From an uncultured euryarchaeote (GTDB taxonomy: Archaea; Thermoplasmatota; Poseidoniia; Poseidoniales; Poseidoniaceae), in contig CAXDRT010000003.1 in the NCBI GenBank assembly GCA_963991835.1, positions 1 through 41,364 of the forward strand: a DNA stretch of 41,364 nt, read 5' to 3'. The stretch's first letter is position 1, and each line of letters opens with the position of its first letter. The notes beneath the pieces are model-generated. The model was given only the letters and a program-made list of their open reading frames with translations, was not told the origin of the DNA and ran no database searches. A program made the translations under genes and the position numbers. Below are positions 597 to 24,787 of this stretch, in pieces.

Positions 597-1324
597 TGGG
601 AGGATATGGAGACGTCAAGCTATTGCGGGACGATGGAAAAAGACTAGATGGACGCACAGTAGATGAAATGCGTCCAGTATCAATTGAAGCGGGTGTTTTG
701 CCTGCTGCTGATGGTTCTGCCATGGTTACCCATGGACTGAATGTTGCAGTAGCAGCAGTATATGGGCCTATGGAAGCACATCCACGTAAGATTCAACGAC
801 AAGATCGTGCAGTTATCGATGTACGATACAACATGGCTCCGTTCTCAACTGGAGACCGTATCAGACCTGGATTTAATCGACGTTCAAGAGAAATTTCTAA
901 GGTTACTGCAGAAGCACTCGAGTCTGTTGTCCTTGTGGAGCGTTACCCACGTTCCAAGATTCGAGTTGAAATCGAAATTCTTGCTGCTGAAGCAGGTACC
1001 CGTTGTGTTGGTATTACCGCTGCTGCAGTTGCTCTAGCAGATGCTGGAATTCCAATGCGTGACATGATTGTCGGTGTTGCTTCAGGAAAGATCGAAGACA
1101 CAGTTGTACTTGACCTTGACAAAGCAGAGGACAACTATGGACAGGCCGATTTGCCAGTTGGAATACTTCCAAACACTGGAGAAATTGCCTTCCTACAAAT
1201 GGATGGCGACCTTTCAATTGAAGAATTCAATCTTGCAATGGAATACAATTTCAAAGCGGCATCAGAAATTCATGAACTCATGGTTGATGCGCTTAAGCGT
1301 CGATATGAACGAGGTGATAACTGA
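596..1324 (+). CDS. rrp41: Exosome catalytic subunit Rrp41 (RNase PH family)
   Basis: RLDGR..DEMRP, ADGSA, YNMAPFST..R, GTRC and DLDKAED motifs; GAGGTG RBS; TAATG stop/start overlap. Confidence 0.97.
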   Translation: MGGYGDVKLLRDDGKRLDGRTVDEMRPVSIEAGVLPAADGSAMVTHGLNVAVAAVYGPMEAHPRKIQRQDRAVIDVRYNMAPFSTGDRIRPGFNRRSREISKVTAEALESVVLVERYPRSKIRVEIEILAAEAGTRCVGITAAAVALADAGIPMRDMIVGVASGKIEDTVVLDLDKAEDNYGQADLPVGILPNTGEIAFLQMDGDLSIEEFNLAMEYNFKAASEIHELMVDALKRRYERGDN

Positions 1325-2109
1325 TGGTTGAACTTGTACCTACACTCTTGCGCCAAGAACTTGAGCGACTTGCAGCAGATGACCAGCGAATTGATGGACG
1401 TGGACAATGGGACAGCAGAAATGTATCCCTCGAAGTTGACTGTCTCTACAACGCAGAAGGATCTGCAAAGGTTGTTTGGGGAGATACCATCATCTATGCT
1501 GGTGTCAAATTTGAAATCCGAACTCCATGGCCAGACAGACCTGCACAAGGTTCCTTGATGTGCGGTGCCGAACTTCGCCCTGTTGCTCATCGAAAGTATG
1601 AGCCAGGACCGCCTTCTCCTCAATCCATTGAATTGGGCCGAGTAGTCGATAGAGGAATCCGTGAGTCAGGTTGCATCGATATGGAAGATCTCTGTATCGT
1701 TCCTGGTGAGAAAGTATGGGGTGTTATGATTGACATCCATGTTCTTTCTGACGGAGGAAACATCTTCGATGCTGCTGGACTTGCTGCTATTGCAGCATTG
1801 AGAACGGCAGTCGTTCCAGCTGAACGATTTGATGTTGGTGAAGATTACAAACTGAAAGTCAACGGCTCTCCAATTATGGCATCGTTTACACGTGCTGGTG
1901 GAAGATTTGTTTACGACCCATCTGAAGAAGAAGAATTGGGCGGAGACGAGCGAATCCATATCACTCTAGGTGATGAAGGGCATCTCCACTCCCTACAGAA
2001 GGGACTAAGAGGAGTGTTCACTCCGAGCGAATTTGCAGAGATTCTTGCGGTCGCAGAGCAGAAGTGTACTGAACTACGAGAAATGGTTGCAGAAAAGGAG
2101 GGGAACTGA
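1324..2109 (+). CDS. rrp42: Exosome subunit Rrp42
   Basis: RIDGR, AEGSA.V, EPGPP, ELGRVVDRGIRES, L.IVPGEKVW and DGGNIFDA motifs; follows rrp41. Confidence 0.96.
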   Translation: MVELVPTLLRQELERLAADDQRIDGRGQWDSRNVSLEVDCLYNAEGSAKVVWGDTIIYAGVKFEIRTPWPDRPAQGSLMCGAELRPVAHRKYEPGPPSPQSIELGRVVDRGIRESGCIDMEDLCIVPGEKVWGVMIDIHVLSDGGNIFDAAGLAAIAALRTAVVPAERFDVGEDYKLKVNGSPIMASFTRAGGRFVYDPSEEEELGGDERIHITLGDEGHLHSLQKGLRGVFTPSEFAEILAVAEQKCTELREMVAEKEGN

Positions 2110-2457
2110 TTGGCTAAGAGAACCCAGAAAGCAAAGGCTACGGCACGATTTGGAGCACGTTACGGTGTTAGCGTACGAAGAAATGCTGGCAGCGCATTGG
2201 CTAAGAAAAATGCAAAATACACATGTCCGGTTTGCCATTATCGCAAGGTTACCCGTCAATCCGTAGGAATTTGGTCCTGTGGAAAGTGCGGACACACATT
2301 TGCTGGTGGCGCATGGGAGCCATTCACACGTGCTAGCGATGCTAACGCACGTATTCTTCGACGATCTGTTGAAGGTGCAACTACTGCTGATATGGCATTC
2401 ATTGCACAGCAAGCTGCACTCGACTTCGAGCGTAAGGCGTCTGAAGAAGAGGAGTGA
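2110..2457 (+). CDS. rpl37ae: Ribosomal protein L37Ae (eL43) with C-terminal extension
   Basis: RFGARYG, CPVC...GIWSCGKC...FAGGAW zinc ribbon; TTG start after GGAGG RBS; conserved superoperon position. Confidence 0.95.
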   Translation: MAKRTQKAKATARFGARYGVSVRRNAGSALAKKNAKYTCPVCHYRKVTRQSVGIWSCGKCGHTFAGGAWEPFTRASDANARILRRSVEGATTADMAFIAQQAALDFERKASEEEE

Positions 2458-2463
2458 GCCAAA

Positions 2464-2730
2464 ATGGCGGAGACGCCCTTTTCACTGGTTTGCACAATCA
2501 AACGTGATGATGTAATTCAGCGTAAAGCATTGCAAGAATCATTATCAAGCGAGGCTGAAACGATATCCATTGATGATCAACAGTTCAGTTTCAATTTACA
2601 TGAAGCAAACGCAAAAGATCTCAGGGCCATGTGGAACACTCGTATCCGTGGTCTTATTGCTGCAGATGAAATTCTCAAGGTAATTCAAACCGCAGGTTCA
2701 TCAACCAATAGTGATTCGAATGAATCATGA
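2464..2730 (+). CDS. pcc1: KEOPS complex subunit Pcc1-like protein
   Basis: 88 aa; C-terminal 'A.DLRAMWNT.IR' pattern; expected position between rpl37ae and pfdB. Confidence 0.65.
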   Translation: MAETPFSLVCTIKRDDVIQRKALQESLSSEAETISIDDQQFSFNLHEANAKDLRAMWNTRIRGLIAADEILKVIQTAGSSTNSDSNES

Positions 2731-3041
2731 GCACCATGGAACAACTCCAAGTTGTCGTTTCTGAAGTACAAAATGCACGCCATCAAGTCGCAACAGTTCG
2801 TGCTCAATTGCAAGAATTAAAGACCACAATAGATGCTGTGGAAAAGCACCCTGAAGGCCTATCTCTTCACCGACAACTCGGAGGAGTCTTGGTTGAAGTT
2901 GACAATCGTAACGAACTTATTGAGGAACTGAAAACTACCCATGCCACACTCTCTGAACACGCTGAACGTCTCGCTGAGCATGAAGCAAAACTTGTAACAG
3001 CATACGAAGAACTCAAGAAATCACTTGAGGGAGAAGCTTGA
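2727..3041 (+). CDS. pfdB: Prefoldin beta subunit (divergent)
   Basis: Coiled coil, beta hairpin (LHRQLGGVLVEV), coiled coil; 104 aa; superoperon position. Confidence 0.8.
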   Translation: MSTMEQLQVVVSEVQNARHQVATVRAQLQELKTTIDAVEKHPEGLSLHRQLGGVLVEVDNRNELIEELKTTHATLSEHAERLAEHEAKLVTAYEELKKSLEGEA

Positions 3042-4030
3042 GTTCACAAAAAGAGCAACTTGATGCCATGAAATCATGGCTTGATAATGCTCTTGAAACA
3101 GGGGCAGTTCCAGTCGTTACAGGCCAAAATGGCGATATGGATACGGTTGGTTCAGCAATCGCATTGTCCTCTTATCACTCTGGAATGTTGTCATGTGGAT
3201 TACACCTCGGCAGGGTAGCCAAAAAAATGGTAGCAAAATACGATGCTCCATTTCGAAAAATCACTGAAAAAGGAACTGCTTGGCCTCAGAAGATGGGTGG
3301 TATTGTCATCGTTGATGCTGGATCTCCTGACCAAGTTGGTTTTGATATACCTGATGTTCCATTGTTGGTTATTGATCATCACGCAACCAATGGATGGGAA
3401 CTCAAAGACAATGACCTCATGTTGCAATGGGATGTTCGTGCAACAACAGAAATCATCACACAATTCCTATCCAATCACGCTCCAAGTTGTCTCTCAACAA
3501 ATGTTCGTAGGATGCTTCTAGCAGGATTAATCACAGATACTGGCCGTTTCAAACATGCAGACCAATCATCGTTCGTTACTGCTTCGCTTTTACTTGAAGA
3601 TACAGCCATTGATTATGCTGAGTTTTCTGAACATCTCGAAAAGGAGCAAACAAACCCAAGTGAGCGTGGTAGTTTATTGCGAGGTATGTCCCGATCCAAA
3701 ATGCATGCTGCAGGCGATTGGTCTCTTGTAACAACATATGCGGGTACACTTGAAGGAAGGCTTGCATCAATGCTTCTCGGTGTTGGTTCAGATGTAACTC
3801 TTGTTTCACGATTTAAAGATGGTTCTACACGATTGACAGCTCGAGCCTCCCGTAATGCTACACTACGAGGTGTGCATCTCGGTAATATCATGCAGGAAGT
3901 TGCTCGACAACACGGTGGAGAAGGCGGAGGACATGATGGAGCAGCAGGCTGGACTGGAGAAATCGATCGTATCAGAGCAGAATCCGCATTTATTGCCCAT
4001 TTGACTTTACAAAAGGAGTTGAAACAATGA
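3038..4030 (+). CDS. DHH/DHHA1 family phosphoesterase (NrnA-like)
   Basis: GDMD, VD, IDHH, GLITDTGRF and GGGHDGAAG motifs; usual neighbour of pfdB. Confidence 0.88.
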   Translation: MSSQKEQLDAMKSWLDNALETGAVPVVTGQNGDMDTVGSAIALSSYHSGMLSCGLHLGRVAKKMVAKYDAPFRKITEKGTAWPQKMGGIVIVDAGSPDQVGFDIPDVPLLVIDHHATNGWELKDNDLMLQWDVRATTEIITQFLSNHAPSCLSTNVRRMLLAGLITDTGRFKHADQSSFVTASLLLEDTAIDYAEFSEHLEKEQTNPSERGSLLRGMSRSKMHAAGDWSLVTTYAGTLEGRLASMLLGVGSDVTLVSRFKDGSTRLTARASRNATLRGVHLGNIMQEVARQHGGEGGGHDGAAGWTGEIDRIRAESAFIAHLTLQKELKQ

Positions 4031-5076
4031 GGCCAACTGCACCTGGGTTATTTATTTCAAAATGGAGAACAGAGGGGCCAGTGGAATTAGATGTCGCTCA
4101 ACAATGGCTGTCTGAATCAGGTTGGACTGACTGGATGGCGATTATTGAAGCTGCATTATATCTTGACGCTGCAGAACTGGTAGAATTACTCCTCCCAGAA
4201 TTATCGCCTGCTCAACGGGCTACATTCGATCTTGTCCGCAGAAGAATGCTCGGTGATACCAGGCTCGAAGAAGCCATTGAACATGCTTTGACTCTATGCA
4301 GAGATCCCGATACCAGAGATCTCGCCCTTGAGGGTAGACTTCGTATGGAGCGTGGTTTGCAACGTTTCGAACATGGCGATACAGCTGCTGCAGAAGAGGA
4401 CTTAACGTGGGCAGAAACACGCTTGAAATCTGTTTCAAAAGCGAGTAGAGACCATGACCTTTCTTTGTTAAACAAAGCTGCATTTCATATGGCGAATGGT
4501 GAAGATCTGATGGCACTCCAAGTCTATGGAGATGTTTCACGTAAGGAAAATCATGCTCACGAAACAATTGCAATTTCCCGTATAGGAGCAACACGAATTC
4601 ATGCGAGGTATGGCCATATGTTTGATGCTGCAAGAAACGCATGGAATGGACATGCACATGCCATTCTAGCCCAGCAACCGAAAATGGCTATTGAAGCAGG
4701 ATCGCTCTTTTTGGATTTAACAATAGACCATCAAGACGAACAGGCAATTCGTTTCCAAAATCAAGTTGATGAAGCAAAGCCAAGAGATGCAAGTGAGGAA
4801 ACACCAACTCTCTCTGTTCATCCAGATGATGTTCATGGTGTCTTCACTTGGTGCATGAAGAGTTTGGATAAGACACCTCAAGGTGAAGATCGACCAGATC
4901 TTCGAGCTATGGTAATGATGGCAAACCGCCTCGATAAGTTTGATCAAATGAATTGGTTGACTAACAAATCTGAACGTGTTCAGGATTCAATGCTTGTTGC
5001 AGTTGTTCTTGGTTGTAACATCGACGAAGAAGTCCACATGGAGTGGACAAAACGACTTCAAGAATTAATGCCCTAA
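4027..5076 (+). CDS. Hypothetical alpha-helical (TPR-like) protein
   Basis: 349 aa ORF with GGAG RBS and ATGA overlap with the DHH gene; Ala/Leu-rich helical pattern; no recognisable catalytic motif. Confidence 0.7.
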   Translation: MRPTAPGLFISKWRTEGPVELDVAQQWLSESGWTDWMAIIEAALYLDAAELVELLLPELSPAQRATFDLVRRRMLGDTRLEEAIEHALTLCRDPDTRDLALEGRLRMERGLQRFEHGDTAAAEEDLTWAETRLKSVSKASRDHDLSLLNKAAFHMANGEDLMALQVYGDVSRKENHAHETIAISRIGATRIHARYGHMFDAARNAWNGHAHAILAQQPKMAIEAGSLFLDLTIDHQDEQAIRFQNQVDEAKPRDASEETPTLSVHPDDVHGVFTWCMKSLDKTPQGEDRPDLRAMVMMANRLDKFDQMNWLTNKSERVQDSMLVAVVLGCNIDEEVHMEWTKRLQELMP

Positions 5077-5478
5077 TTCTATAGAATCGACCCAATGGCT
5101 CAAATCGATGACTTCTTGAGCATCCCAGTGAGTAAATGGAGGCACCTGTGCAAACCATCGAACTTCACTAACAACTTTGTCAGCAACTTTCCAAGATTTC
5201 TGATGAAATGGTTCGTCTTCTGAATGAACAGTAACCAATCCAACCCATCCATTAGGATAGTAATCAGTATTCCATGTAATCAGAGTACCTTTTCCACCAA
5301 CTTCTTCTTGAAGTTCTCGCATCAATGCTTCTTCTGGAGTTTCGCCATCTTCGACATGACCGCCTGGAAATTCCCATCCTCTGTCCGGATGTCGCACCAT
5401 CAGTATTCTTCCCCCATTAAGTACAGAATGAGAATATTGATCCTCAACAACATAGGCAAGAACAAACGTTGGACGCAT
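5065..5478 (-). CDS. Nudix hydrolase
   Basis: Complete Nudix box GGHVEDGETPEEALMRELQEEVG. Confidence 0.9.
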   Translation of the reverse strand: MRPTFVLAYVVEDQYSHSVLNGGRILMVRHPDRGWEFPGGHVEDGETPEEALMRELQEEVGGKGTLITWNTDYYPNGWVGLVTVHSEDEPFHQKSWKVADKVVSEVRWFAQVPPFTHWDAQEVIDLSHWVDSIELGH

Positions 5479-11516: not shown

Positions 11517-11989
11517 GCATGTTGACAGGATCTATCCTCGGCATTTTTGCCACAGAGGAAGGTGGTGTTCCAAAACCATCAGTTGATTCAATAGACGTAC
11601 GTTTCAATGGAGTTCTAGGAGAACGTATACGGGATACTAAGCATCATGGTGGACCAAATCGTGCTGTCTGTATTTTATCGAATCAAACTCTTGAATTTCT
11701 TCAAGACCAGGGGCATCCAATAGATGGCGGTTCAACTGGAGAAAATCTTCTGCTCGATATTGAGGCATCCATACTGAAAAAGGGCACTCGATTAACATTT
11801 GAACAGGTCGAATTGGAGATAACAACACCAGCAGCACCATGCAAAACGATTCGAGATTCGTTTACAAGTGGAGAATTCAAGCAACTCTCTCACAAATTGA
11901 ATCCATACCAAACACGTTGGTATGCACGAGTGATATCAGAAGGGATCATCAAGAGTGATGAAACGTTTGAGATCAACTTAACCGCTTGA
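11513..11989 (+). CDS. MOSC domain protein (YiiM-like)
   Basis: GGVPK, HHGGPNRAV, GENL, PC and WYARVISEG motifs; start is TTG 11513 or ATG 11519. Confidence 0.85.
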   Translation: MSMLTGSILGIFATEEGGVPKPSVDSIDVRFNGVLGERIRDTKHHGGPNRAVCILSNQTLEFLQDQGHPIDGGSTGENLLLDIEASILKKGTRLTFEQVELEITTPAAPCKTIRDSFTSGEFKQLSHKLNPYQTRWYARVISEGIIKSDETFEINLTA

Positions 11990-13727
11990 GTTGAAGATCT
12001 GTCAATTCTCGAAGTGCAAGCATTCCTGGACCATCTGGTAAACGATCGAGACATGCGTGAGCTTTCTTGTGATAGTGGTTCGCTTTATCACGAGCATAAG
12101 CGATTGAACCGAGTTGACTTAACGACTCGACACCCTGTTGAATCATTTCGGATGAGGCCTCTTCACCCATCCCCAGTACGTTAAGTAAGTTATTCTTTAC
12201 CTCACTATCTGGTTGATTTAATGCATGAATAACCATCAGTGTTTGCTTACCTTGTGCCACATCAGATCCAGTAGGTTTGCCCAGTGTCTTAGAATCTGAA
12301 AGTACATCAATTAAGTCATCCATAAGTTGGAAACAAAGCCCAACTGAAAGTCCCCATTCCGACATGCAATCGATAATATCCTGATCTGATCCTGCTACTT
12401 GAGCTCCCAGTTCAGCACAAATTTGGAACATGACTGCTGTTTTGCCTTCGATCATCTCGAGATATTCACCTTCTGAAACTCTGTCTCTGGTCTCGAATTC
12501 GATGTCGAGTTGTTGTCCCTCAGAGACACGACGAACCATCCAAGCAATCCGATTGACCAAGGATGGTATGTCTTCAAGTTCGATGTTCGCAGACATTACA
12601 AGACGTTCAAAAGCAATTGCAAGCATTGCATCCCCTGCATTAATTGCAGTAGGAACATCATACTCAACGTGAACTGCATTTCTACCTCTTCGGATATCAT
12701 CATCATCCATGATATCGTCATGGACCAATGTGAAATTGTGAATTGTTTCAATTGCTGCTCCTATATCCAGCAAACCAGAGTGGGTATCGCCTACAGCCCT
12801 GCCGACAAGCCAAGGAAGCGTAGCACGCATTCTCTTACCCCCACCTTCAATCAAGTGAAGCATTGCTGATGCGAGTCGATCGTGACGTGATGCTTGCAGA
12901 CTTTCGACAATACGACGTTCAATAAATGGGCCAACCTCTTTCAAACTCGTCGCTAAGTCAGCACCAATTGCTCCAGGAAGCATATGAGTTACATCCCCCA
13001 TATCATGAATTAAATCATCACATAGCGATGCACATGCATCTGCATCCCCAATAGCCTTCCACCAATCTTCATTCATCACTTGGGCTGCGATACAACGGAA
13101 CCAGGGTGCCACAATATCATCTGAGTCTTGATCAACAAGCATCTGTTCCAGTTCATGTTCGTCAACCCACCTAATAGAGGCCACTTCATTTGGATTAGGG
13201 CGGACTTCAACATCAGCTTGAATCATCAGAATGTGATCAATTTCTCGTTCAATCCATTCTGCATTCATACGAGCAGTGTATTTCATTTTCGTAATGAAGT
13301 GAAAATCTTCGATTGGAACTGAACTTGGTTCGATTCCTAATTCCTGTTCAAGTTTTCGAACGGCTGCTAATTTTACACCCATGGCATTCTCTTCATCCAT
13401 CTCTCCTGCACTTGCTAGTGGATGAGAGCAACATGAATTCGCCCAAACACTTGGGAAGGTGATTTTGTCGTGAGCACGTTGCTGTAAAAGCAAGCGCTTG
13501 TTCTTATCAAACAAGAGAACGCTAAATGCACGATGGAGTGAACCAGCTCCATAGTGGCTATCTGCTTTGCTTATAGGGCCCACAACGATATCATTTTCAT
13601 CAACTTGTAGGACAGCTTCGGCCATCATCATTGCTTGAGTCTTATCAGCAGCTGAAGATGCAATCAAACCAGCGGCCTGCTCATCAATAGCAGCCACTGG
13701 AACATCTCCTGATGCATACTCCGACAT
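11973..13727 (-). CDS. Bifunctional type-1 isopentenyl-diphosphate isomerase / geranylgeranyl diphosphate synthase
   Basis: N-terminal half: LHRAFS, LLQQRA..KITFP..W.NSCCSHP, E.EID. C-terminal half: GGKRMR, FTLVHDDIMDDDDIRRG, GQQLD, KT, FQLMDDLID. Confidence 0.93.
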   Translation of the reverse strand: MSEYASGDVPVAAIDEQAAGLIASSAADKTQAMMMAEAVLQVDENDIVVGPISKADSHYGAGSLHRAFSVLLFDKNKRLLLQQRAHDKITFPSVWANSCCSHPLASAGEMDEENAMGVKLAAVRKLEQELGIEPSSVPIEDFHFITKMKYTARMNAEWIEREIDHILMIQADVEVRPNPNEVASIRWVDEHELEQMLVDQDSDDIVAPWFRCIAAQVMNEDWWKAIGDADACASLCDDLIHDMGDVTHMLPGAIGADLATSLKEVGPFIERRIVESLQASRHDRLASAMLHLIEGGGKRMRATLPWLVGRAVGDTHSGLLDIGAAIETIHNFTLVHDDIMDDDDIRRGRNAVHVEYDVPTAINAGDAMLAIAFERLVMSANIELEDIPSLVNRIAWMVRRVSEGQQLDIEFETRDRVSEGEYLEMIEGKTAVMFQICAELGAQVAGSDQDIIDCMSEWGLSVGLCFQLMDDLIDVLSDSKTLGKPTGSDVAQGKQTLMVIHALNQPDSEVKNNLLNVLGMGEEASSEMIQQGVESLSQLGSIAYARDKANHYHKKAHACLDRLPDGPGMLALRELTDLQLKRLS

Positions 13728-18098: not shown

Positions 18099-19115
18099 AT
18101 GGCTGGCTTTGGTGGCATACGCAAAGGTCGAAATGAAGCGATTGAGAACATCTCCGTACAAGAAGAAGGAGATTGCCCAACTTGTGGTGGTGAAAGCCAA
18201 CCTTCGACAATGGAAGGTTACCTGACTTGCAGCCGATGTTCTTACGAATGGAAAGATCCTAACTATGTTTCAAAGAATGTTCGAGGGCCACCACCAAATC
18301 ATCGCCGCGATAACGAATTGATTCAAGAATTCAAAAACGAAATGGAGAGAGGTGATCTAAAAGGCGTCCTCGGTGTAGAATCAAACCTCTCTGATGAACA
18401 AGAACAATCACTGAAACGATTGGAAGATAAATGGATGAGTGGAATGCAAGGACATTACAATGCTGCCTCAGAAGATCGAAAACCTCTCATGATCAGTTTT
18501 GATGATGACGACAACATCGTATCAACAGAAGTCGCTGCTCTAACCATTGTGTCGAATGGGTTTGATGGTGGAGAAGAGATTCGACTTGAATATCCTGGAA
18601 AGGGGACTGAATTCTATGCATTTAATGAAAAAAGCCCCACAGGATGGAAGCGAGGAAGTTCAATTGAATCAACAGCTCGCTCAATAACCAATGTCATTAA
18701 CCGATCATCGAGACTTGTTTATGCAAATCTTGATGGCAACAGAATCTCCTTTGAATTACGAAGTGAGGATTTGAAACCAGAATCATTCGTTTTGTTTGTT
18801 GACGATCCAGGTGGCCAAGACATTGTTGCAGAAAAAGGAGGAGTTATCTTAGATTTCAGAGACGTCAATGTTTGGGATGATTATCGAAATGTCGTTGCTC
18901 TTGTTTTAGAAGATGGTATTATTTCTCCAAGTGAAGATCAGATGCTTTGGGTTATGAGGCAGCAATTAGGAATTGAAGAAGAACAACACGTTGCTCTTGT
19001 TTTGGAAATATTCGGTGATAACGCATTGAAAGAATGCACCAATTGCAACAACATGGGGCAACTCTATCCAGAATATTCAGCATGGTACTGCCAGGCTTGT
19101 GAAAGTTGGCTCTAA
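18099..19115 (+). CDS. Hypothetical protein with two terminal zinc ribbons and a TerB-like segment
   Basis: CPTC..CSRC at the N-terminus; CTNC..YCQAC at the C-terminus; 'LEDGIISPSE...RQQLGI'. Confidence 0.75.
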   Translation: MAGFGGIRKGRNEAIENISVQEEGDCPTCGGESQPSTMEGYLTCSRCSYEWKDPNYVSKNVRGPPPNHRRDNELIQEFKNEMERGDLKGVLGVESNLSDEQEQSLKRLEDKWMSGMQGHYNAASEDRKPLMISFDDDDNIVSTEVAALTIVSNGFDGGEEIRLEYPGKGTEFYAFNEKSPTGWKRGSSIESTARSITNVINRSSRLVYANLDGNRISFELRSEDLKPESFVLFVDDPGGQDIVAEKGGVILDFRDVNVWDDYRNVVALVLEDGIISPSEDQMLWVMRQQLGIEEEQHVALVLEIFGDNALKECTNCNNMGQLYPEYSAWYCQACESWL

Positions 19116-19183: not shown

Positions 19184-19192
19184 TTCATAAAG
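19184..19192 (+). promoter_or_regulatory. Putative TATA-like element for the actin gene
   Basis: TTCATAAAG 40 nt upstream of ATG 19224, preceded by a purine-rich tract. Confidence 0.45.
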
Positions 19193-19223: not shown

Positions 19224-20249
19224 ATGGCTGAAGACGTATTGTATATTGGAATTGACTTGGGGACTTTCCGCTCCGTAATGGTTTCATCAGGAAATCACGA
19301 AGAAGAAGAACTAACTGTAATTGGAACACCTAAAGATCCTATTGCTCGAAACTTTTTGAAGAGAGATGTACTCTTTGGAGAAGAAGCACTCAAGAACCGT
19401 TTGGCTCTCAACCTTTTCAGACCCCTCGAGCTTGGTGTCATTAAAGATACTAAAGAAGACAGAGAATTCATTGCTCACTTCATCACCCATCTTATTGGAC
19501 TCTCAGATCCTGAAGACCACAATCGTGTTGTCGCTGTCATCGGGGCTCCTGCAGAAGCAAGCCACGTTGACAAGACTGCAATTTTCGATGCAGCAGCCGG
19601 ATCAGTTAACGCTGCAATGATTATTTCTGAACCATTCGCAGTTGCATACGCACTGGACATGATTGAGCACACACTCGTTATCGACATTGGAGCAGGAACA
19701 ACTGACCTTTGCCGTGTGTATGGAACAATCCCAGGACCAGGTGATCAGATGCACACTGGATACGCTGGAGACTATGTTGACGCACAAATCATCAAGGAAG
19801 TTCAATCCAAGTACAACGGTGCTCAAATCACCAAGGATATGGCTCGCCGATGGAAGGAACAGTACTCCTTTGTATCAACATCAACACCAGATGATCCAAT
19901 TATGGTTGATTTCTCCATTGAAGGAAAGGCAATGACGCTCGACATTACAGATTGCATGCAACGTGCTTGCGAATCAATAGTTGAACCAATTGTCGATAAC
20001 GTCAAGAAGCTTATCGCTGACTCAAACCCTGAATACCACGACGAATTCCGTCGAAACATGGTGCTCGCAGGTGGCGGTTCTGGAATCCGTGGACTCGGTG
20101 CTCTCATCGAACGACGACTCTCGGACATGGGAGACGTCAACGTGCACGTTGTCGATGACCCAGTACGTCTCGGTGCAATGGGAGGTCTCAGACTCGCTAT
20201 GGAAGTTCCAGAAGAGATGTGGAAGAACCTCACCCTTGCTTCGACATGA
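19224..20249 (+). CDS. Actin-family ATPase, MamK-like
   Basis: GIDLGT, SEPFA, DIGAGTTD and AGGGS actin motifs, plus MamK-type segments (G.PKD.I, AVIG.PA.AS, G..PGP.DQ, KEQ.SFV, LRLA.E.P...W). Confidence 0.9.
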   Translation: MAEDVLYIGIDLGTFRSVMVSSGNHEEEELTVIGTPKDPIARNFLKRDVLFGEEALKNRLALNLFRPLELGVIKDTKEDREFIAHFITHLIGLSDPEDHNRVVAVIGAPAEASHVDKTAIFDAAAGSVNAAMIISEPFAVAYALDMIEHTLVIDIGAGTTDLCRVYGTIPGPGDQMHTGYAGDYVDAQIIKEVQSKYNGAQITKDMARRWKEQYSFVSTSTPDDPIMVDFSIEGKAMTLDITDCMQRACESIVEPIVDNVKKLIADSNPEYHDEFRRNMVLAGGGSGIRGLGALIERRLSDMGDVNVHVVDDPVRLGAMGGLRLAMEVPEEMWKNLTLAST

Positions 20250-20260
20250 TCGTGGTCTAG

Positions 20261-20929
20261 ATGAAAAAGGGGCTTGTGATTGCTGGCAGTATTCTATCTG
20301 CCGTGTGTATAATAGTTGCCTTGATTAGTCTCTTTGCAGCAATTGGTTTTGAACCTGAATCAGATAATATTCTCCACGATACAAGGACAGATGGTACTAC
20401 CTACAACTTTGACGAGGGCGATTCTTTCGTTCTGCAAGTGTATGCAATAGGTTCCGTAAATTGTGAAGATTTTACAGTATCTGTCATTGGGCCTGATGAT
20501 CAATCGTATGAATATTTCAAACCTGTTTGTGATGAAGTATTTGACACGACTGAATACACGTATCTAGGAGATTTATCAATCTCTGAATCTGGTACATACG
20601 AAATAGAAGCAACTGGAGACATTGTAATTACAAATGCCAATAGTATAGGTATTGGTGGAATTGTCTCAATGGTTAGTTGTGGATGTTGTTTCATTGGATT
20701 AATTTTACTGATTGTGGGACTTGTCACTGGAAAGCCAAAACCACAAGTGATGATGGTCCAACCTGATGGCACCATAATGGCAGTACAAGGACAATTTGTA
20801 CAACAAACTCCAATGAGTGGACAGGTCTCTAATCAACCTCAACAAGTGGTTGCTCAATCACAACAAAATGTACCTCAAGAAACTTCTTTGGAAGAATATA
20901 GTTTTGAGCAAAAGAACGAATGGGAGTAG
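20261..20929 (+). CDS. Two-TM membrane protein with beta-rich loop and Gln-rich tail
   Basis: N-terminal TM, acidic beta domain, Cys-rich TM (SCGCC), Q/P-rich tail. Confidence 0.75.
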   Translation: MKKGLVIAGSILSAVCIIVALISLFAAIGFEPESDNILHDTRTDGTTYNFDEGDSFVLQVYAIGSVNCEDFTVSVIGPDDQSYEYFKPVCDEVFDTTEYTYLGDLSISESGTYEIEATGDIVITNANSIGIGGIVSMVSCGCCFIGLILLIVGLVTGKPKPQVMMVQPDGTIMAVQGQFVQQTPMSGQVSNQPQQVVAQSQQNVPQETSLEEYSFEQKNEWE

Positions 20930-20935
20930 ATTCCT

Positions 20936-21655
20936 ATGTGGACGAAAGAGACCAAAGTGGTCATCTTAACTGGTGCTGGAATAAGTGCTGAATCAGGCAT
21001 TCGAACCTTCAGAGCTTCAGATGGATTATGGGAAGAGCATAGAATAGAGGATGTTGCAACACCAATGGGTTGGGAAAGAAATCCTCAACTTGTCTGGGAT
21101 TTTTATCAAGCAAGACGGCGCCAGTTGTTCGAAGTTAAACCAAATCCAGGACATACCGCACTTACAACCTTAGAGGAATTTCTTGATGATATGCTTCTCG
21201 TCACTCAAAATGTCGACAATCTCCATGGGTGTGCTGGTTCAAAAAATCTGATTCACATACATGGAGAGCTCGAGAAGTTACGTTGTGAAGAGTGTTACCA
21301 TGTCGACGTAATGATGGAACCACAAGATCTAGGCACATCATTCGTGTCATGTCCTGTATGTACGAATACAATGATGCGTCCTCACATCGTTTGGTTTCAT
21401 GAAATGCCAATGCAAATGGCTGAAATCGAGAAGGCTTTGAATCAATGTGATGTTTTCATTGCAATTGGTACAAGTGGACACGTGTACCCAGCTGCTGGTT
21501 TTCTTGCATCGGCAAAACAACAGGGATCATATTGCATTGGTATCAACCTTGATGCACCATTAAATTACGATCTCTTCGATGAATTTCATCAAGGTAAAGC
21601 TGGTGAAATTCTGCCTGAACTTGTTCATCAATGGATTAATACCGAGCAACCATAG
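20936..21655 (+). CDS. cobB: NAD-dependent protein deacylase (class III sirtuin)
   Basis: GAGISAESGIRTFR, FYxxRR, TQNVDNLH, HG, CxxC..CxxC, RPHIVWF and GTSGHVYPAAG motifs. Confidence 0.95.
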   Translation: MWTKETKVVILTGAGISAESGIRTFRASDGLWEEHRIEDVATPMGWERNPQLVWDFYQARRRQLFEVKPNPGHTALTTLEEFLDDMLLVTQNVDNLHGCAGSKNLIHIHGELEKLRCEECYHVDVMMEPQDLGTSFVSCPVCTNTMMRPHIVWFHEMPMQMAEIEKALNQCDVFIAIGTSGHVYPAAGFLASAKQQGSYCIGINLDAPLNYDLFDEFHQGKAGEILPELVHQWINTEQP

Positions 21656-21666
21656 GGGTGATTATT

Positions 21667-22164
21667 ATGTCAGAAACACTAGTTACAGGAATCATCATAT
21701 TTTTGGTAATTTTAGTCCGAGGTTTCCAGTTTTGGAAACGATCTGGTCATGATATCGATGAACTGAAAGAGGTTGTCTCAACGATGGAAGCAAGCCACAA
21801 AACCAATAAAAATGTCTTTGGAAGTGAACCCCTTCATGTTCGATCAGTTATCAATAGCAAGGAAGAAACCTGGACATTGAAGTCTTCAAATGATGTTATG
21901 AAGATATTAGAATCCCAATATCCTTGTAAAGGCATAATTTATTTTGAAGATTCAAATGAGGATGGGATTCATTTAGTGTATACAACCATTGAAGAAAATA
22001 GTAATGCGATTATGAACATCAGTGCAAAGAATGGAAGTGCAATAATCGAGGAAGGTGAATTTAACATGGATCATGAGTCACCAGCTGGTGTTTTTCAAAT
22101 CATAAATACACTCCTTAGAGAAAGGACCAAGAAAGAAGAACTTGATGATTTGTTTAAAAATTGA
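21667..22164 (+). CDS. Hypothetical single-TM protein
   Basis: GGGGTG RBS; N-terminal hydrophobic helix; soluble remainder. Confidence 0.6.
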   Translation: MSETLVTGIIIFLVILVRGFQFWKRSGHDIDELKEVVSTMEASHKTNKNVFGSEPLHVRSVINSKEETWTLKSSNDVMKILESQYPCKGIIYFEDSNEDGIHLVYTTIEENSNAIMNISAKNGSAIIEEGEFNMDHESPAGVFQIINTLLRERTKKEELDDLFKN

Positions 22165-22211
22165 CTCTCAGAAATAGTTATTATAATACGCTTGAGACTA
22201 TTACAATAAAT

Positions 22212-22853
22212 GTGGCACAGTTCTATGTCAATCCTCCTCGGACTACTGGAGGTAGTCCATCTGCAATTTGGTGGGCCGTTTTTGCACTGAGCGTTATGCT
22301 CTATGTTATTGGAATAGGCACTGGAATAATGGAACTCGGTGGTGTTGCATGCTGTTCAGGATTCATCACAGGTATTGTAGCTCTTTCACTTACATTTAAT
22401 GGAAGAAGGCAAACGATGATTGTTCAAACCATCCCACAAATCGCTGTTGGTCCTATTGCTCCACAGATGTATGCCCAGCAAAGCCCTCAACCTCAAGTTA
22501 GACAACAACCTGCTAGCAGAGTTATATCTTCACCACCAAACAAACCTCCTGCACCAAATATGGCAAATTCAGTTGCGAAACAAGCAAAAAATCTAGAACT
22601 GGCAAGGGATTTTGAAGGCGCTGCAAAACTATACCAAAAGGCGGGATTATTTGGGGAAGCAGGGCGTATTCGCAAAGAATATCTAGAAAAAAATGATTCA
22701 CCGATGGTTCAAATCGGGCATGTAGGTGATTCTATAGTCCGCGATTCAGTGGTTATGAATGAGCCTAATTCGACCGAACAGTGCAAAAGTTGCGGAATCC
22801 AAATCCAGCCTGATTGGAAATTCTGTCCAGGATGCAATTCTTCAATTCCTTGA
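22212..22853 (+). CDS. Membrane protein with P/Q-rich linker and C-terminal zinc ribbon
   Basis: Two TMs, P/Q linker, short TPR-like helices, CKSCG...FCPGC; GTG start chosen from TTATAA 31 nt upstream (ORF track starts at 22161). Confidence 0.68.
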   Translation: MAQFYVNPPRTTGGSPSAIWWAVFALSVMLYVIGIGTGIMELGGVACCSGFITGIVALSLTFNGRRQTMIVQTIPQIAVGPIAPQMYAQQSPQPQVRQQPASRVISSPPNKPPAPNMANSVAKQAKNLELARDFEGAAKLYQKAGLFGEAGRIRKEYLEKNDSPMVQIGHVGDSIVRDSVVMNEPNSTEQCKSCGIQIQPDWKFCPGCNSSIP

Positions 22854-22870
22854 TTTGGGATAGACACAAA

Positions 22871-23512
22871 TCATTCTTCTTCCCAACCATGACGAGATGC
22901 GAGATCTCTACTCACAAGTGGTTGGTTACAGTGAGGGCAGGTATCTGCAGGTGAAAGAAGGTCTGGACGGATTGCGAGAACTGCCATACAGTTTGGACAT
23001 GCTGCAAGCATCTCTCCGTCCATTAAACTGGCCTCAGGAGTTGGGACAAATGTATGATATCCCTGCTTATACAATGGTGAGAAATGATAACGCATTCTAT
23101 TGAATGAACTGTAGGATGCGTAGCCCATAATCAACAAGAAGAGAATTGAGCCAACCGAACCCAAGATCACATTGTAGAGATTCAGCAAGAACAATAGGAA
23201 AAACAGTAATGATGCCAGTGTCAGAATAATTGCACCTGGCCAATATGCCCACGTCCTTCGTGACCGATAGGAGAACCAAGTTGAAGTTGTTGCAAAAAGT
23301 GGGATGGCCCAAATTAACATCGATAATCTGCCCAAGTATTGTTGAGATACGCTCGCAATATCCCAAGCAATAAGAACGATGATTAGACTATCAATGGCTA
23401 AGACTAGCGATGTACTGCGATGAGTTTGGTCAAACAATGTGGAAAGTGTCATCGAGGCTTGTTGGCCACCAGAACCTGCGAGAACGATGTCTCCACTTCG
23501 GTCCCCTGCCAT
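22871..23512 (-). CDS. Four-TM membrane protein with C-terminal zinc ribbon
   Basis: Four hydrophobic segments, then CPNC...CPHC. Confidence 0.72.
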   Translation of the reverse strand: MAGDRSGDIVLAGSGGQQASMTLSTLFDQTHRSTSLVLAIDSLIIVLIAWDIASVSQQYLGRLSMLIWAIPLFATTSTWFSYRSRRTWAYWPGAIILTLASLLFFLLFLLNLYNVILGSVGSILFLLIMGYASYSSFNRMRYHFSPLYKQGYHTFVPTPEASLMDGEMLAACPNCMAVLAIRPDLLSPADTCPHCNQPLVSRDLASRHGWEEE

Positions 23513-23590
23513 ATCATGGGCTGTAGGTCACCAATCAAGAATGCTTGTGTTGAACGAAGAAGTCATGATAGACAAGCCTCTCGCAGGTAC

Positions 23591-24787
23591 ATGACCGTGG
23601 GGGATACCGGTGTTGAAATGAAGGGCTCTAGCCTTTCAGGACATCGAATCATCGTAGGTGTCACAGGAGGGATTGCAGCTGTTGATACAGTACGCCTCCT
23701 TCGTGAATTACGTCGCCATGGTGCAGAACTGCTGGTCATTATGACTGAGTCTGCTCAACGCGTTATCACTCCCTTGGCTGTCGAATGGGCGAGTCAATGT
23801 GAGGTAATTACAGATTGGGATGGTGATATGAAGCAACTCGAAGATGCGGATGCGATTCTTGTTGCCCCAGCAACAAGAAACACAATTGCAGCTCATCTCC
23901 ATGGAATGCAACAAGGGCCCCTTTTGATGGCTCTCAGTGCTGCTCGTTCACGCAACACCCATGTGTTAATGGTACCAAGTATGCATGGAGATTTAGCATC
24001 AGATCCAGTAACTGATGACATTGTAGATCGCCTTAGAGAGGAAGAAATCGATGTTATGTGGGGTGATTTAGAAGAGGGGAAACGGAAAACTCCAGATCAT
24101 GAGCATATAGTTGCACGATTTGCACATGGCATTAATTCCCACAAAAACAATAGAAAGAGTGTCGTTGTCACCTTAGGAGGTACATACTCACCTATTGATG
24201 ACATCCGTGGAATTCAAAATACAAGTTCTGGAAAAACTGGGTATCAGATTGCAGATGACATGTATAGACATGGACATGATATCACCTGTGTTGTTGGTAA
24301 AACCTCAGTAACGATGCCTGAATGGTTGCCCCTCTGCATACAAGCCCCTCAGCCACAAACAATGCTCAAGGAATTGATGGCTATTGCCAATGATGATATC
24401 GATGCTTGGGTCCATACTGCAGCAGTATTGGATTATGTTGTTGAAACTCCTGCAAGTGGAAAACTTGCAAGTCAACAGGGGCCACTTGAGATCACACTTG
24501 TTGAAGGTGAAAAGCACATTTTTGAATTGAAATCCAAAACACAAGGTGCGACCAGAATTGGGTTCAAACTCGAGTCTGGCATCAAGCAACGTGATCTTAT
24601 TCATCGAGCTGTTGCCCAAATTGAGCATTCAGGTATGACTGCTGTTGTTGCAAATCGATTAGAGGATCTCAATGATTCTTCAAAACCAAGAGGATATCTT
24701 GTCGATAAGCAAGGCAGTCACTTTGTGTTAAACAACGATATTGATCTTTGTGATGCACTACGAACCATCATTGAACGAGGAGATTAA
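23591..24787 (+). CDS. coaBC: Bifunctional phosphopantothenoylcysteine decarboxylase/synthase
   Basis: GVTGGIAA, VAPAT.NT, PSMH, ID.IR.I.N.SSGK.G, AAV.DY, GFKLE and VVAN motifs. Confidence 0.92.
   Translation: MTVGDTGVEMKGSSLSGHRIIVGVTGGIAAVDTVRLLRELRRHGAELLVIMTESAQRVITPLAVEWASQCEVITDWDGDMKQLEDADAILVAPATRNTIAAHLHGMQQGPLLMALSAARSRNTHVLMVPSMHGDLASDPVTDDIVDRLREEEIDVMWGDLEEGKRKTPDHEHIVARFAHGINSHKNNRKSVVVTLGGTYSPIDDIRGIQNTSSGKTGYQIADDMYRHGHDITCVVGKTSVTMPEWLPLCIQAPQPQTMLKELMAIANDDIDAWVHTAAVLDYVVETPASGKLASQQGPLEITLVEGEKHIFELKSKTQGATRIGFKLESGIKQRDLIHRAVAQIEHSGMTAVVANRLEDLNDSSKPRGYLVDKQGSHFVLNNDIDLCDALRTIIERGD

What the first reader, a model, noticed from the sequence alone, without database searches (positions are those of the whole stretch)
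19224..20249. MamK-like actin in a marine archaeon with no magnetosome genes nearby
Seen: a full 341-aa actin fold with intact phosphate-1 (GIDLGT), catalytic Glu (SEPF), phosphate-2 (DIGAGTTD) and adenosine (AGGGS) motifs. From recall, it matches magnetosome MamK colinearly (G.PKD.I, AVIG.PA.AS, G..PGP.DQ, KEQ.SFV, PEY, DP...G..G.LRLA.E.P...W) much better than MreB, crenactin or ParM. No mam, mreC or mreD genes occur in the window. By eye the codon choice (TTC/ATC/AAC/GAC) resembles EF-2, suggesting a resident, highly expressed gene, and it has its own candidate promoter. Known: haloarchaeal salactin is a MamK-related dynamic filament linked to DNA partitioning. Inference: an uncharacterised cytoskeletal system of this lineage for cell shape, DNA or organelle positioning.
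Basis: partly seen in the sequence, partly recalled or inferred. Interest (0 to 1): 0.85.

Follow-up and report, generated by a model that had tools for sequence, protein, structure and literature searches.

The report
MamK-family actin of marine Poseidoniales archaea
This gene encodes an actin-like filament protein of the MamK family that is kept, with a second copy and an unknown partner gene, across a very abundant group of uncultured ocean archaea, so it is probably part of their still unstudied internal skeleton rather than of a magnetic organelle.

Summary
Window 19224-20249 (+) is an intact 341-aa actin-fold gene. Its best matches are MamK: PDB 5ljw at E 1e-74 and NCBIfam MamK at 359 bits, below the 400 cut-off. 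BeeR scores 215, MreB 96 and salactin 65.

It is not magnetosome MamK. MamB, M, O, P and J were not found in the 86%-complete genome. In trees it falls in a separate clade, and an AU test rejects joining it to MamK (p 9e-7).

It is a resident gene. A match was found in 194 of 285 genomes of the order: 161/161 in the window's own family, but only 30/121 in the sister family, where small-genome genera lack it.

A 44%-identical paralog has its own conserved neighbours. An orphan double zinc-ribbon gene (18099-19115) lies directly upstream in 37 of 38 genomes and occurs in the same genera.

Codon usage ranks the gene in the top 2.9% of the genome, next to EF-2.

MamK-like actins outside magnetotactic bacteria are already published (BeeR, saltatorellin). 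I therefore rate this a new archaeal variant of moderate interest. Its function is untested.

The parts
19224..20249 (+). MamK-family actin-like ATPase gene, 'paralog A', 341 aa. Phosphate-1 motif at residues 9-14, catalytic Glu136 inside SEPF, phosphate-2 motif at 154-161, adenosine motif at 282-286.
   Evidence: ORF and translation. Motif positions. PDB MamK E 1e-74 over residues 2-336. NCBIfam MamK 359 bits (cut-off 400). Orthologs at 68-100% identity in three families of the order.
19184..19191 (+). Candidate archaeal TATA-like promoter box, starting 40 nt upstream of the start codon, inside the 108-nt gap between the zinc-ribbon gene and the actin gene.
   Evidence: An octamer fitting one degenerate consensus in at least 7 of 8 positions lies 30-48 nt upstream of the start codon in 17 of 20 orthologous upstream regions. 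In 500 shuffles the mean was 1.07 of 20 and the maximum 5. The sequences are shown. The consensus was derived from these same sequences, so the count is generous. The sigma-70 scan is irrelevant for an archaeon and was not above its shuffles.
18099..19115 (+). Orphan 338-aa acidic cytoplasmic protein ('ZnR338'). It has an N-terminal CxxC...CxxC zinc ribbon, a confidently folded core and a C-terminal zinc ribbon. It is the candidate partner, adaptor or regulator of paralog A.
   Evidence: Directly upstream on the same strand in 36 of 37 other genomes examined, plus the window itself. Found in 186 of 285 genomes of the order and in the same 18 genera that hold paralog A. All eight zinc-ribbon cysteines are invariant in 19 orthologs. 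No Pfam or NCBIfam family above cut-off. AlphaFold2 core: pLDDT 93, pTM 0.86; no PDB fold with TM above 0.36. Relatives carry only Poseidoniales, 'Euryarchaeota archaeon' or marine group II/III names, or Thermoplasmatota in the Atlas taxa. pI 4.5 and no apolar run.

Best explanation
The gene encodes a resident and probably abundant actin-like ATPase of the broad MamK family. It is one of two ancient paralogs, and these are the only polymer-type actin homologs found in this Poseidoniales (Marine Group II) genome.

Proposed mechanism, by analogy with MamK:
1. ATP binds in the cleft formed by the phosphate-1, phosphate-2 and adenosine motifs.
2. Monomers polymerise into cytoplasmic filaments.
3. 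Hydrolysis through Glu136, which aligns with Glu143 of the solved MamK chain, drives filament turnover.
4. Lineage-specific partners couple the filament to what it positions or shapes. For this paralog the candidate partner is the zinc-ribbon protein encoded directly upstream. For the second paralog the candidates are a membrane-anchored subtilase and a long coiled-coil protein.

The system serves something other than magnetosomes. Streamlined genera of the sister family have lost it.

What is shown: family placement, intact motifs, conservation, synteny, co-occurrence, codon bias, and presence in contigs assembled from RNA libraries.

What is inferred: polymerisation, the partner roles and the cargo. 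My leading guess for the role is a general scaffolding or positioning cytoskeleton of the larger-genome Marine Group II cells. It is held weakly.
For: Family placement.
- PDB MamK at E 1e-74 over the full length. HMM ranking is MamK 359 bits, BeeR 215, MreB 96, salactin 65.
- BLASTP identity is 38-40% to a MamK that sits between MamJ- and MamM/O/P-type genes, 33% to a BeeR-like protein and 22-23% to MreB.
- All motifs are intact and invariant in 20 orthologs, mean column identity 84%.

Resident gene, not a passenger.
- 194 of 285 genomes of at least 80% completeness have a match: f1 161/161, f2 2/2, f3 30/121, structured by genus.
- The order Tpt1 / zinc-ribbon gene / actin / membrane protein / CoaBC is conserved over three families.
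- GC content is the same as in the flanks.
- The second paralog lies among FtsY, prefoldin, L18Ae and PcrB genes.

Gene tree.
- Paralog A has support 100, paralog B 100, and A+B together 98 (SH-aLRT). The clade holding magnetosome MamK lies elsewhere with support 99. FastTree gives the same picture.

Other cytoskeletal genes.
- No MreB, MreC or MreD was found, while two FtsZ-type genes are present.

Partner gene.
- Adjacency in 37 of 38 genomes and co-occurrence at genus level.

Expression proxies.
- The codon index is in the top 2.9% of the genome. The four highest-ranking ORFs are three ribosomal proteins and EF-1 alpha.
- A conserved TATA-like box lies upstream.
- Contigs from 4 of 4 marine metatranscriptome libraries, from 3 studies, lie on the gene at 90-100% identity.

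Precedent.
- The MamK relatives BeeR and saltatorellin from non-magnetotactic bacteria form filaments (passages read).
Against: - No experiment exists on this protein, so polymerisation is inferred from homology alone.
- The score is below NCBIfam's MamK cut-off (359 vs 400).
- The partner role of the zinc-ribbon protein rests only on gene order and co-occurrence. That gene has average codon usage (58th percentile), and the actin gene appears to have its own promoter, so the two need not be co-expressed.
- About three quarters of the sister-family genomes (91 of 121) lack the system, so it is dispensable for the basic Marine Group II cell plan.
- The RNA evidence comes from assembled contigs only. 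These cannot prove transcription or give expression levels, and the runs were chosen because they contain this gene.
- The codon index is only a proxy for expression.
- Supplementary trees of the salactin and BeeR papers could not be read. They may already include these sequences.
Confidence: 0.7

Rival explanations
1. It is a functional MreB substitute: a membrane-associated filament that sets cell shape, as the database label 'rod shape-determining protein MreB' implies.
For: JGI and NCBI sources call close relatives 'rod shape-determining protein (MreB)'. Pfam's best model is MreB_Mbl at 97.7 bits. No other MreB was found in the genome. Loss from the small-genome genera would fit a simpler cell shape there.
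Against: The NCBIfam MreB models score 96 and 86 bits against cut-offs of 293 and 366. Identity to two verified MreBs is 22-23%. MreC and MreD were not found. Archaea lack the peptidoglycan machinery that MreB guides (established knowledge). No apolar or amphipathic terminal segment is evident: the longest apolar run is the 10-residue nucleotide-binding loop. The shape of these uncultured cells is not known to me.
Confidence: 0.15
2. It is a DNA-segregation motor like ParM, AlfA or salactin, with the upstream zinc-ribbon protein as the DNA-binding adaptor.
For: Zinc ribbons often bind nucleic acids (general knowledge). An actin gene paired with one small partner gene resembles type II partition loci. 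In the salactin paper I read only the passages that mention MamK.
Against: No centromere-like repeat array lies in or around the pair: only two-copy chance-level repeats were found, and the upstream gap is about 50 nt. The partner is large (338 aa), acidic throughout (pI 4.5; N-terminal ribbon region pI 4.7) and encoded upstream, unlike ParR-type adaptors (the ParMRC layout is recalled). The ParM model scores 12 bits and the salactin model 65 against a cut-off of 400. The locus is chromosomal and syntenic, not on a mobile element.
Confidence: 0.15
3. It is a recent horizontal acquisition or a binning contaminant with no role in the lineage.
For: The nearest relatives outside the order form a clade of long fusion proteins. 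The single member that was located sits beside genes that look bacterial, including a weak Peptidase_M23 match. Elsewhere in the phylum only 6 genomes carry a relative. An inter-domain transfer at some ancient time is therefore likely.
Against: The gene is present in 161 of 161 genomes of the window's own family, with conserved synteny in three families. Orthologs group by family in the tree. GC content matches the flanks, and codon usage matches the host's highly expressed genes. The contig also carries EF-2 and ribosomal protein S7.
Confidence: 0.02
4. It is a non-polymerising ASKHA-fold ATPase, such as a chaperone or kinase, that merely resembles MamK.
For: Weak Hsp70, HscA, FtsA and EutJ matches appear in the family scans. 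No filament has been observed.
Against: Those matches are 13-30 bits, against 359 for MamK. The alignment to the MamK chain from the filament structures covers the whole length at 254 bits. The characterised relatives I read about (BeeR, saltatorellin) form filaments. MamK itself is described as a filament former in the same passages.
Confidence: 0.05

Closest known systems
MamK of magnetotactic bacteria (Magnetospirillum; PDB 5ljw, 5ljv, 5jyg)
   Same: Same actin-fold subfamily. It is the best HMM and PDB match, collinear over 335 residues. BLASTP identity is 38-40% to a MamK found inside a mam gene cluster. All nucleotide-binding motifs and the catalytic Glu are conserved.
   Different: No magnetosome genes were found in the genome. 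The score is below the curated family cut-off (359 vs 400). It belongs to a separate clade, and joining the two is rejected (AU p 9e-7). The neighbouring genes are different. The host is an archaeon.
BeeR (Verrucomicrobiota; PDB 8r2n) and saltatorellin (Saltatorellota)
   Same: Both are MamK-related actins of non-magnetotactic organisms with unknown cellular roles, and both were shown to form filaments (passages read). BeeR is the second-best HMM and PDB match.
   Different: The BeeR model scores 215 bits against a cut-off of 530. The disordered N-terminal domain described as a BeeR hallmark is absent: the first motif starts at residue 9. BeeR-like proteins form a distant clade. No saltatorellin sequence was available to me. 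Both are bacterial.
Salactin (Haloarchaea and other Methanotecta)
   Same: An archaeal actin homolog whose authors place MamK as its closest subfamily. Like this gene it has no MreB-type partners.
   Different: It is only a distant relative: the salactin model scores 65 bits (NCBIfam, cut-off 400) and 57 bits (Pfam). Salactin carries a long charged disordered N-terminal tail, which is absent here. The archaeal phylum is different.
MreB
   Same: Same superfamily. Public annotations of this protein's relatives use this name.
   Different: Identity is 22-23% and the scores are far below cut-off. MreC and MreD were not found.
Actin plus coiled-coil networks of deep-branching magnetotactic bacteria (MamK, Mad28, Mad20/23/25/26)
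   Same: An actin-like protein works with coiled-coil partners (abstract only). The second Poseidoniales paralog is always followed by a coiled-coil protein of 383-427 aa.
   Different: I did not test homology between the partners. The Poseidoniales coiled-coil protein has no Pfam family, and there is no magnetosome context.

Membership tests
MamK sensu stricto (magnetosome actin) | Scores at or above the curated NCBIfam NF040964 cut-off of 400 bits | tested here: not met
   359.1 bits. A MamK from a mam gene cluster scores 533.5.
MamK sensu stricto (magnetosome actin) | Encoded with magnetosome genes (mamAB-type cluster) in a magnetotactic organism | tested here: not met
   There are none in the window. 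The MamB, MamM, MamO, MamP and MamJ models find nothing in the 86%-complete genome. The MamJ model also matched nothing in the control genomes, so its miss says little.
MamK sensu stricto (magnetosome actin) | Branches with magnetosome-cluster MamK in a family tree | tested here: not met
   It falls in a separate clade. The tree that forces them together is 153 log-likelihood units worse, AU p 9e-7. The group was named after I had seen the tree.
MamK sensu stricto (magnetosome actin) | ATP-dependent assembly into filaments | not testable with these tools
   This needs purified protein.
Broad MamK-like actin family (MamK, BeeR, saltatorellin and unnamed bacterial members) | MamK is the best-scoring family and structure over the full length, with intact actin-fold nucleotide-binding motifs | tested here: met
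   The 148 cluster representatives with E up to 1e-30 form one family around it. 22 tree rows were scanned with NCBIfam, counting the MamK from the mam cluster and the second paralog. In 20 of them MamK is the best model (188-534 bits), and in 2 it is BeeR.
MreB | Scores above the NCBIfam MreB cut-offs (293 and 365.75 bits) | tested here: not met
   96 and 86 bits.
MreB | Accompanied by mreC and mreD | tested here: not met
   Not found in the window or the genome. The genome is 86% complete.
BeeR | Equivalog cut-off of 530 bits, plus the disordered N-terminal domain | tested here: not met
   214.8 bits. The fold starts at residue 6-9 with no N-terminal extension.
Salactin | NCBIfam equivalog cut-off of 400 bits | tested here: not met
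   65 bits. The Pfam Salactin model gives 57.3 bits, above its gathering score of 27.1, but well below MreB_Mbl on the same residues.
ParM-type plasmid partition actin | ParM model match, a small downstream adaptor gene and centromere repeats | tested here: not met
   11.9 bits. No repeat array. The locus is chromosomal and syntenic.

The most novel reading that the evidence does not exclude
Poseidoniales have a two-filament actin cytoskeleton of their own, descended from an ancient MamK-like gene. Paralog A would work with a zinc-ribbon protein of apparently new fold as its nucleator or cargo adaptor. Paralog B would be tethered through a coiled-coil protein to a membrane-anchored extracellular subtilase. 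Together they would organise an intracellular or envelope structure not yet seen in these uncultured cells. One example would be positioning of the protein-degrading surface machinery that defines their ecology. That structure would have been lost in the streamlined open-ocean genera.
Probability: 0.2. Interest if true: 0.8.

Novelty: new variant of a known kind. Interest (0 to 1): 0.55.

Why it matters
Marine Group II archaea are among the most abundant archaea of the surface ocean. They have never been cultured, so their cell biology is essentially unknown (general knowledge).

- **A testable cytoskeleton.** A strongly conserved and apparently highly expressed actin pair with defined candidate partners gives concrete handles. 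The proteins can be expressed and imaged. Antibodies or tomography can be aimed at enriched seawater samples.
- **A wider MamK-like family.** The result extends the family, so far studied only in bacteria (magnetosome MamK, BeeR, saltatorellin), into a second domain of life with new partner proteins.
- **An annotation fix.** Hundreds of public proteins are labelled 'rod shape-determining protein MreB' or 'ribosomal protein L37AE'. These labels look wrong.
- **A natural comparison.** Genera with and without the system differ cleanly, which invites comparative study.

Tried and rejected
- **Complex prediction** of paralog A with the zinc-ribbon protein, both given as alignments. The verdict was 'no answer' (score 0.01, mark 0.32). 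It counts neither for nor against binding.
- **Link to the archaellum.** The archaellin family was searched by genus. Three genera have the actin but no archaellin (g3, g4, g26). Two have archaellin but no actin (g25, g10). An obligatory link is rejected.
- **Rosetta-stone test**. The conserved N-terminal domain of the long fusion relatives shows no profile similarity to the zinc-ribbon protein or to the coiled-coil neighbour of paralog B (hhalign probability at most 0.4%).
- **Partner homologs beside distant relatives**. None were found next to the MamK-like genes of six other genomes of the phylum or of two metagenome contigs.
- **Centromere-like repeats**. None were found.
- **Sigma-70 promoter and terminator scan**. 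Counts were not above the shuffles, and the scan is not suited to archaea.
- **Metatranscriptome contigs**. Many stretches of the 12-kb region had no cover. The tool states that such holes prove nothing, and I draw nothing from them or from depths.
- **Taxonomy of the fusion-protein clade.** One contig was found. Its neighbours (UvrC, NHL repeat, MauE, rhodanese, a cysteine desulfurase-SelD fusion, a weak Peptidase_M23 match, a glycosyltransferase) hint at a bacterium but do not settle it.
- **Literature searches.** MamK with 'Marine Group II' gave 0 papers. MamK with Poseidoniales gave 0. 'Marine Group II' with MreB gave 4 papers whose titles are unrelated. Poseidoniales with 'actin' gave 70, mostly 'Actinobacteria' word matches; 15 titles were seen and none concerns an actin homolog. 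Subscription journals and supplementary files were not searched.
- **Tree rows dropped.** 73 of the 169 sequences assembled for the tree aligned to fewer than 300 residues of the query and were dropped. A further 31 of 107 rows, which I chose to save time, were left out of the IQ-TREE run.
Full report
**The observation.** Window 19224-20249 (+) is an uninterrupted ATG-to-stop frame of 341 codons. The opposite strand is closed by many stops.

Against solved structures, the three MamK chains 5ljw, 5jyg and 5ljv match at E 1e-74 to 1e-73 over residues 2-336. BeeR (8r2n) follows at 1e-42 and the best MreB at 7e-15. In that alignment the Glu of the SEPF motif (residue 136) lies opposite residue 143 of the MamK chain.

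NCBIfam ranks MamK at 359 bits (cut-off 400), BeeR 215, MreB 96, salactin 65 and ParM 12. Pfam has no MamK model and gives MreB_Mbl 97.7 and Salactin 57.3.

**Organism and residency.** Proteins 77-96% identical carry source names such as Candidatus Poseidoniaceae, Poseidoniales and Thalassarchaeaceae archaeon. They are annotated either 'hypothetical' or 'rod shape-determining protein MreB'. The window also holds EF-2, ribosomal protein S7, CoaBC, Tpt1 and a thiolase, and its GC content is even.

Among 285 genomes of the order with at least 80% completeness, 194 have a match at E up to 1e-30:
- 161 of 161 in the window's own family;
- 2 of 2 in a second family;
- 30 of 121 in the third family.

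In the third family presence follows genus. Six genera have it, six have none, and one has it in 1 of 14 genomes. The genomes without it are the small ones, 1.3-1.7 Mb (a first sample).

The gene order Tpt1 (opposite strand), zinc-ribbon gene, actin, membrane protein (opposite strand), CoaBC is kept across all three families. In the window's genus four further genes are inserted after the actin gene. This is not a sporadic or recent acquisition.

Elsewhere in the phylum, only 6 of roughly 300 further genomes sampled carry a relative. All six are large genomes of 2.8-5.5 Mb.

First, the genome holds a second copy on another contig, 44% identical by BLASTP and scoring 335 bits against the MamK model. 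Most genomes that have a match show two. This paralog B has its own conserved setting in 5 of 5 loci from three families. A subtilase of 848-1140 aa lies upstream; in the window's genome it ends in an apolar stretch that looks like a membrane anchor. A coiled-coil protein of 383-427 aa with no known family and an acidic tail lies downstream. Around them are FtsY, prefoldin, ribosomal L18Ae and PcrB genes.

Second, the gene directly upstream of the finding (18099-19115) encodes a 338-aa protein with two invariant CxxC...CxxC zinc ribbons and no curated family. It lies upstream on the same strand in 36 of 37 other genomes examined, plus the window itself. The one exception has it 2.1 kb away on the other strand. 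It was found in 186 of 285 genomes and in exactly the 18 genera whose best match reaches paralog-A strength. Two genera whose matches are only of paralog-B strength lack it.

Named relatives of this protein are Poseidoniales, 'Euryarchaeota archaeon' or marine group II/III records, and the Atlas taxa are Thermoplasmatota. Some are mislabelled 'ribosomal protein L37AE/L43A'. Its core folds confidently (pLDDT 93, pTM 0.86), but no PDB fold resembles it above TM 0.36. It is acidic (pI 4.5) and has no apolar segment.

**Place in the family.** A search of 1.84 billion cluster representatives found 148 with E up to 1e-30. Named members of the wider family come from Planctomycetota, Desulfobulbaceae, Thermodesulfobacteriota and Hydrogenedentota. 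NCBI calls several of them 'MamK family actin-like protein'.

For a true MamK reference I used two Rhodospirillaceae records. In the one I scanned, the gene scores 533 bits and sits between MamJ-like, MamM, MamO and MamP genes. Two MreBs over their family cut-off and one just under it served as the outgroup.

FastTree on 107 rows and IQ-TREE on 76 rows (LG+C20+F+G4, SH-aLRT support) agree:
- Paralog A orthologs form a clade (support 100), paralog B orthologs another (100), and the two together a clade (98).
- Their sister (97) is a group of long proteins of 523-1232 aa. These have a conserved N-terminal coiled-coil domain, a long low-complexity linker and a C-terminal MamK-like domain.
- The relatives from other genomes of the phylum lie nearby (support 80).
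- Magnetosome MamK sits in a different clade of 13 rows (99).
- BeeR-like proteins sit in a third clade (96).

Forcing A and B together with magnetosome MamK costs 153 log-likelihood units (AU p 9e-7). I named that group after seeing the tree.

The duplication therefore predates the split of the families of the order. The subfamily is distinct from magnetosome MamK. The one fusion protein that could be located lies among genes that hint at a bacterium, so an ancient inter-domain transfer is likely, but its direction is open.

**Not a magnetosome, MreB or ParM system.** Models for MamB, MamM, MamO, MamP and MamJ find nothing in the genome (the genome is 86% complete, and the MamJ model also matched nothing in the controls). 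MreC and MreD are not found, while two FtsZ-type genes are. Apart from the two paralogs, the only other match to the MreB model in the genome is a 640-aa frame that I took, untested, for an Hsp70. No repeat array that could serve as a centromere lies near the pair.

**Expression proxies.** I computed the share of C-ending codons for Phe, Ile, Asn, Asp, Tyr and His over 1573 long ORFs of the genome.
- The four top ORFs are ribosomal proteins L15e, S8e and L15/L18e, and EF-1 alpha, so the index tracks translational selection.
- Paralog A ranks 45.5 (top 2.9%) and paralog B 85 (top 5.4%).
- EF-2 and S7 in the same window are at 2.0% and 1.1%.
- The zinc-ribbon gene is average (58th percentile), and the genes downstream are at the 81st-97th percentile.

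In the 110 nt upstream of paralog A, a TATA-like octamer recurs about 40 nt before the start codon. It lies within -48 to -30 in 17 of 20 orthologs, against a mean of 1.07 in shuffles. The consensus was read from the same sequences, which inflates the count. This supports a promoter of the gene's own.

Contigs assembled from four marine metatranscriptome libraries of three studies lie on the gene at 90-100% identity. This is compatible with transcription but does not prove it, and it gives no expression level.

**Mechanism.**

Shown: the fold family, the intact ATP-binding and catalytic residues, very strong purifying conservation (84% mean column identity across three families), the two-paralog architecture, the fixed neighbours, and the signs of high expression.

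Inferred from MamK, BeeR and saltatorellin: ATP-dependent polymerisation into cytoplasmic filaments whose turnover depends on hydrolysis, coupled to cargo by lineage-specific adaptors. The protein has no membrane-binding segment that I could see, so adaptors are needed. The zinc-ribbon protein is the obvious candidate for paralog A, and the coiled-coil protein and membrane subtilase for paralog B.

Cargo or role: unknown. An archaellum link is rejected. A ParM-like DNA role is weakened by the missing repeats and the acidic partner. A shape or scaffolding role in the larger-genome genera is my weakly held first guess.

**Novelty.** No paper in the searchable library pairs MamK with Marine Group II or Poseidoniales. 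A search for 'Marine Group II' with MreB gave only four papers with unrelated titles. MamK-like actins in non-magnetotactic organisms, however, are established (BeeR, saltatorellin), and salactin shows that archaea hold related actins.

I therefore rate this as a new archaeal variant of a known kind of system, with two uncharacterised partner sets. It is interesting for archaeal and marine microbiology, but not a categorical surprise. The large actin trees in the supplements of the salactin and BeeR papers may already contain these sequences.

Noticed in passing
Own genome contig C133 (locus L002), about 628-5239; the same arrangement in L039-L043: The second MamK-like paralog (350-aa frame) sits in a conserved three-gene cluster: an S8 subtilase of 848-1140 aa, the actin, then a coiled-coil protein of 383-427 aa with an acidic tail and no Pfam family. 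In the window's genome the subtilase ends in an apolar stretch that looks like a membrane anchor. The cluster is conserved in 5 of 5 loci from three families.
   Followed up: partly
Proteins P0125-P0140; locus L146 8001-10364: The nearest relatives outside the order are 14 long proteins of 523-1232 aa. Thirteen of them share a roughly 110-aa N-terminal coiled-coil domain; the shortest, P0133, has a different N-terminus. All have a K/E/P/S-rich linker and a C-terminal MamK-like domain. The one that was located lies beside UvrC, a cysteine desulfurase-SelD fusion and a weak Peptidase_M23 match, so it may be bacterial.
   Followed up: partly
Loci L033-L038 (six other genomes of the phylum, 2.8-5.5 Mb): MamK-like genes at 40-47% identity. 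Three of them (L033, L034, L035) are followed by a protein of 429-618 aa with a similar N-terminal sequence. This is a different candidate partner, not checked for homology. In L037 I guessed from the ORF sizes and start sequences in the listing that the neighbours are chemotaxis genes. No family search was run.
   Followed up: no
window 20261-22853: Four genes are inserted after the actin gene in the window's genus only. They are a 222-aa membrane protein with a Gln-rich tail that starts 11 nt after the actin stop codon, a Sir2-family deacetylase, a 168-aa protein and a 230-aa membrane protein with a zinc ribbon. All have low codon-index values.
   Followed up: partly
G067 contig C1 about 1175438-1176456; G011 contig C11 1025-2367: In a single-contig, 96%-complete genome of the window's family, paralog A matches as two abutting pieces (residues 1-152 and 154-340). 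In G011 it matches as two pieces with a gap. These could be frameshifts, sequencing errors or pseudogenes.
   Followed up: no
Locus L128 (G183 contig C36): This is the only genome examined where the zinc-ribbon gene is not adjacent to the actin gene. It lies 2.1 kb away on the opposite strand.
   Followed up: no
window 11973-13727 (-): A 584-aa protein joins an N-terminal NUDIX domain to a polyprenyl synthetase domain.
   Followed up: no
window 22871-23512 (-) and 23420-24787 (+): The listed CoaBC frame overlaps the conserved 213-aa membrane-protein gene by 93 nt. Orthologs align only from about residue 60, so the true CoaBC start is probably further downstream.
   Followed up: no
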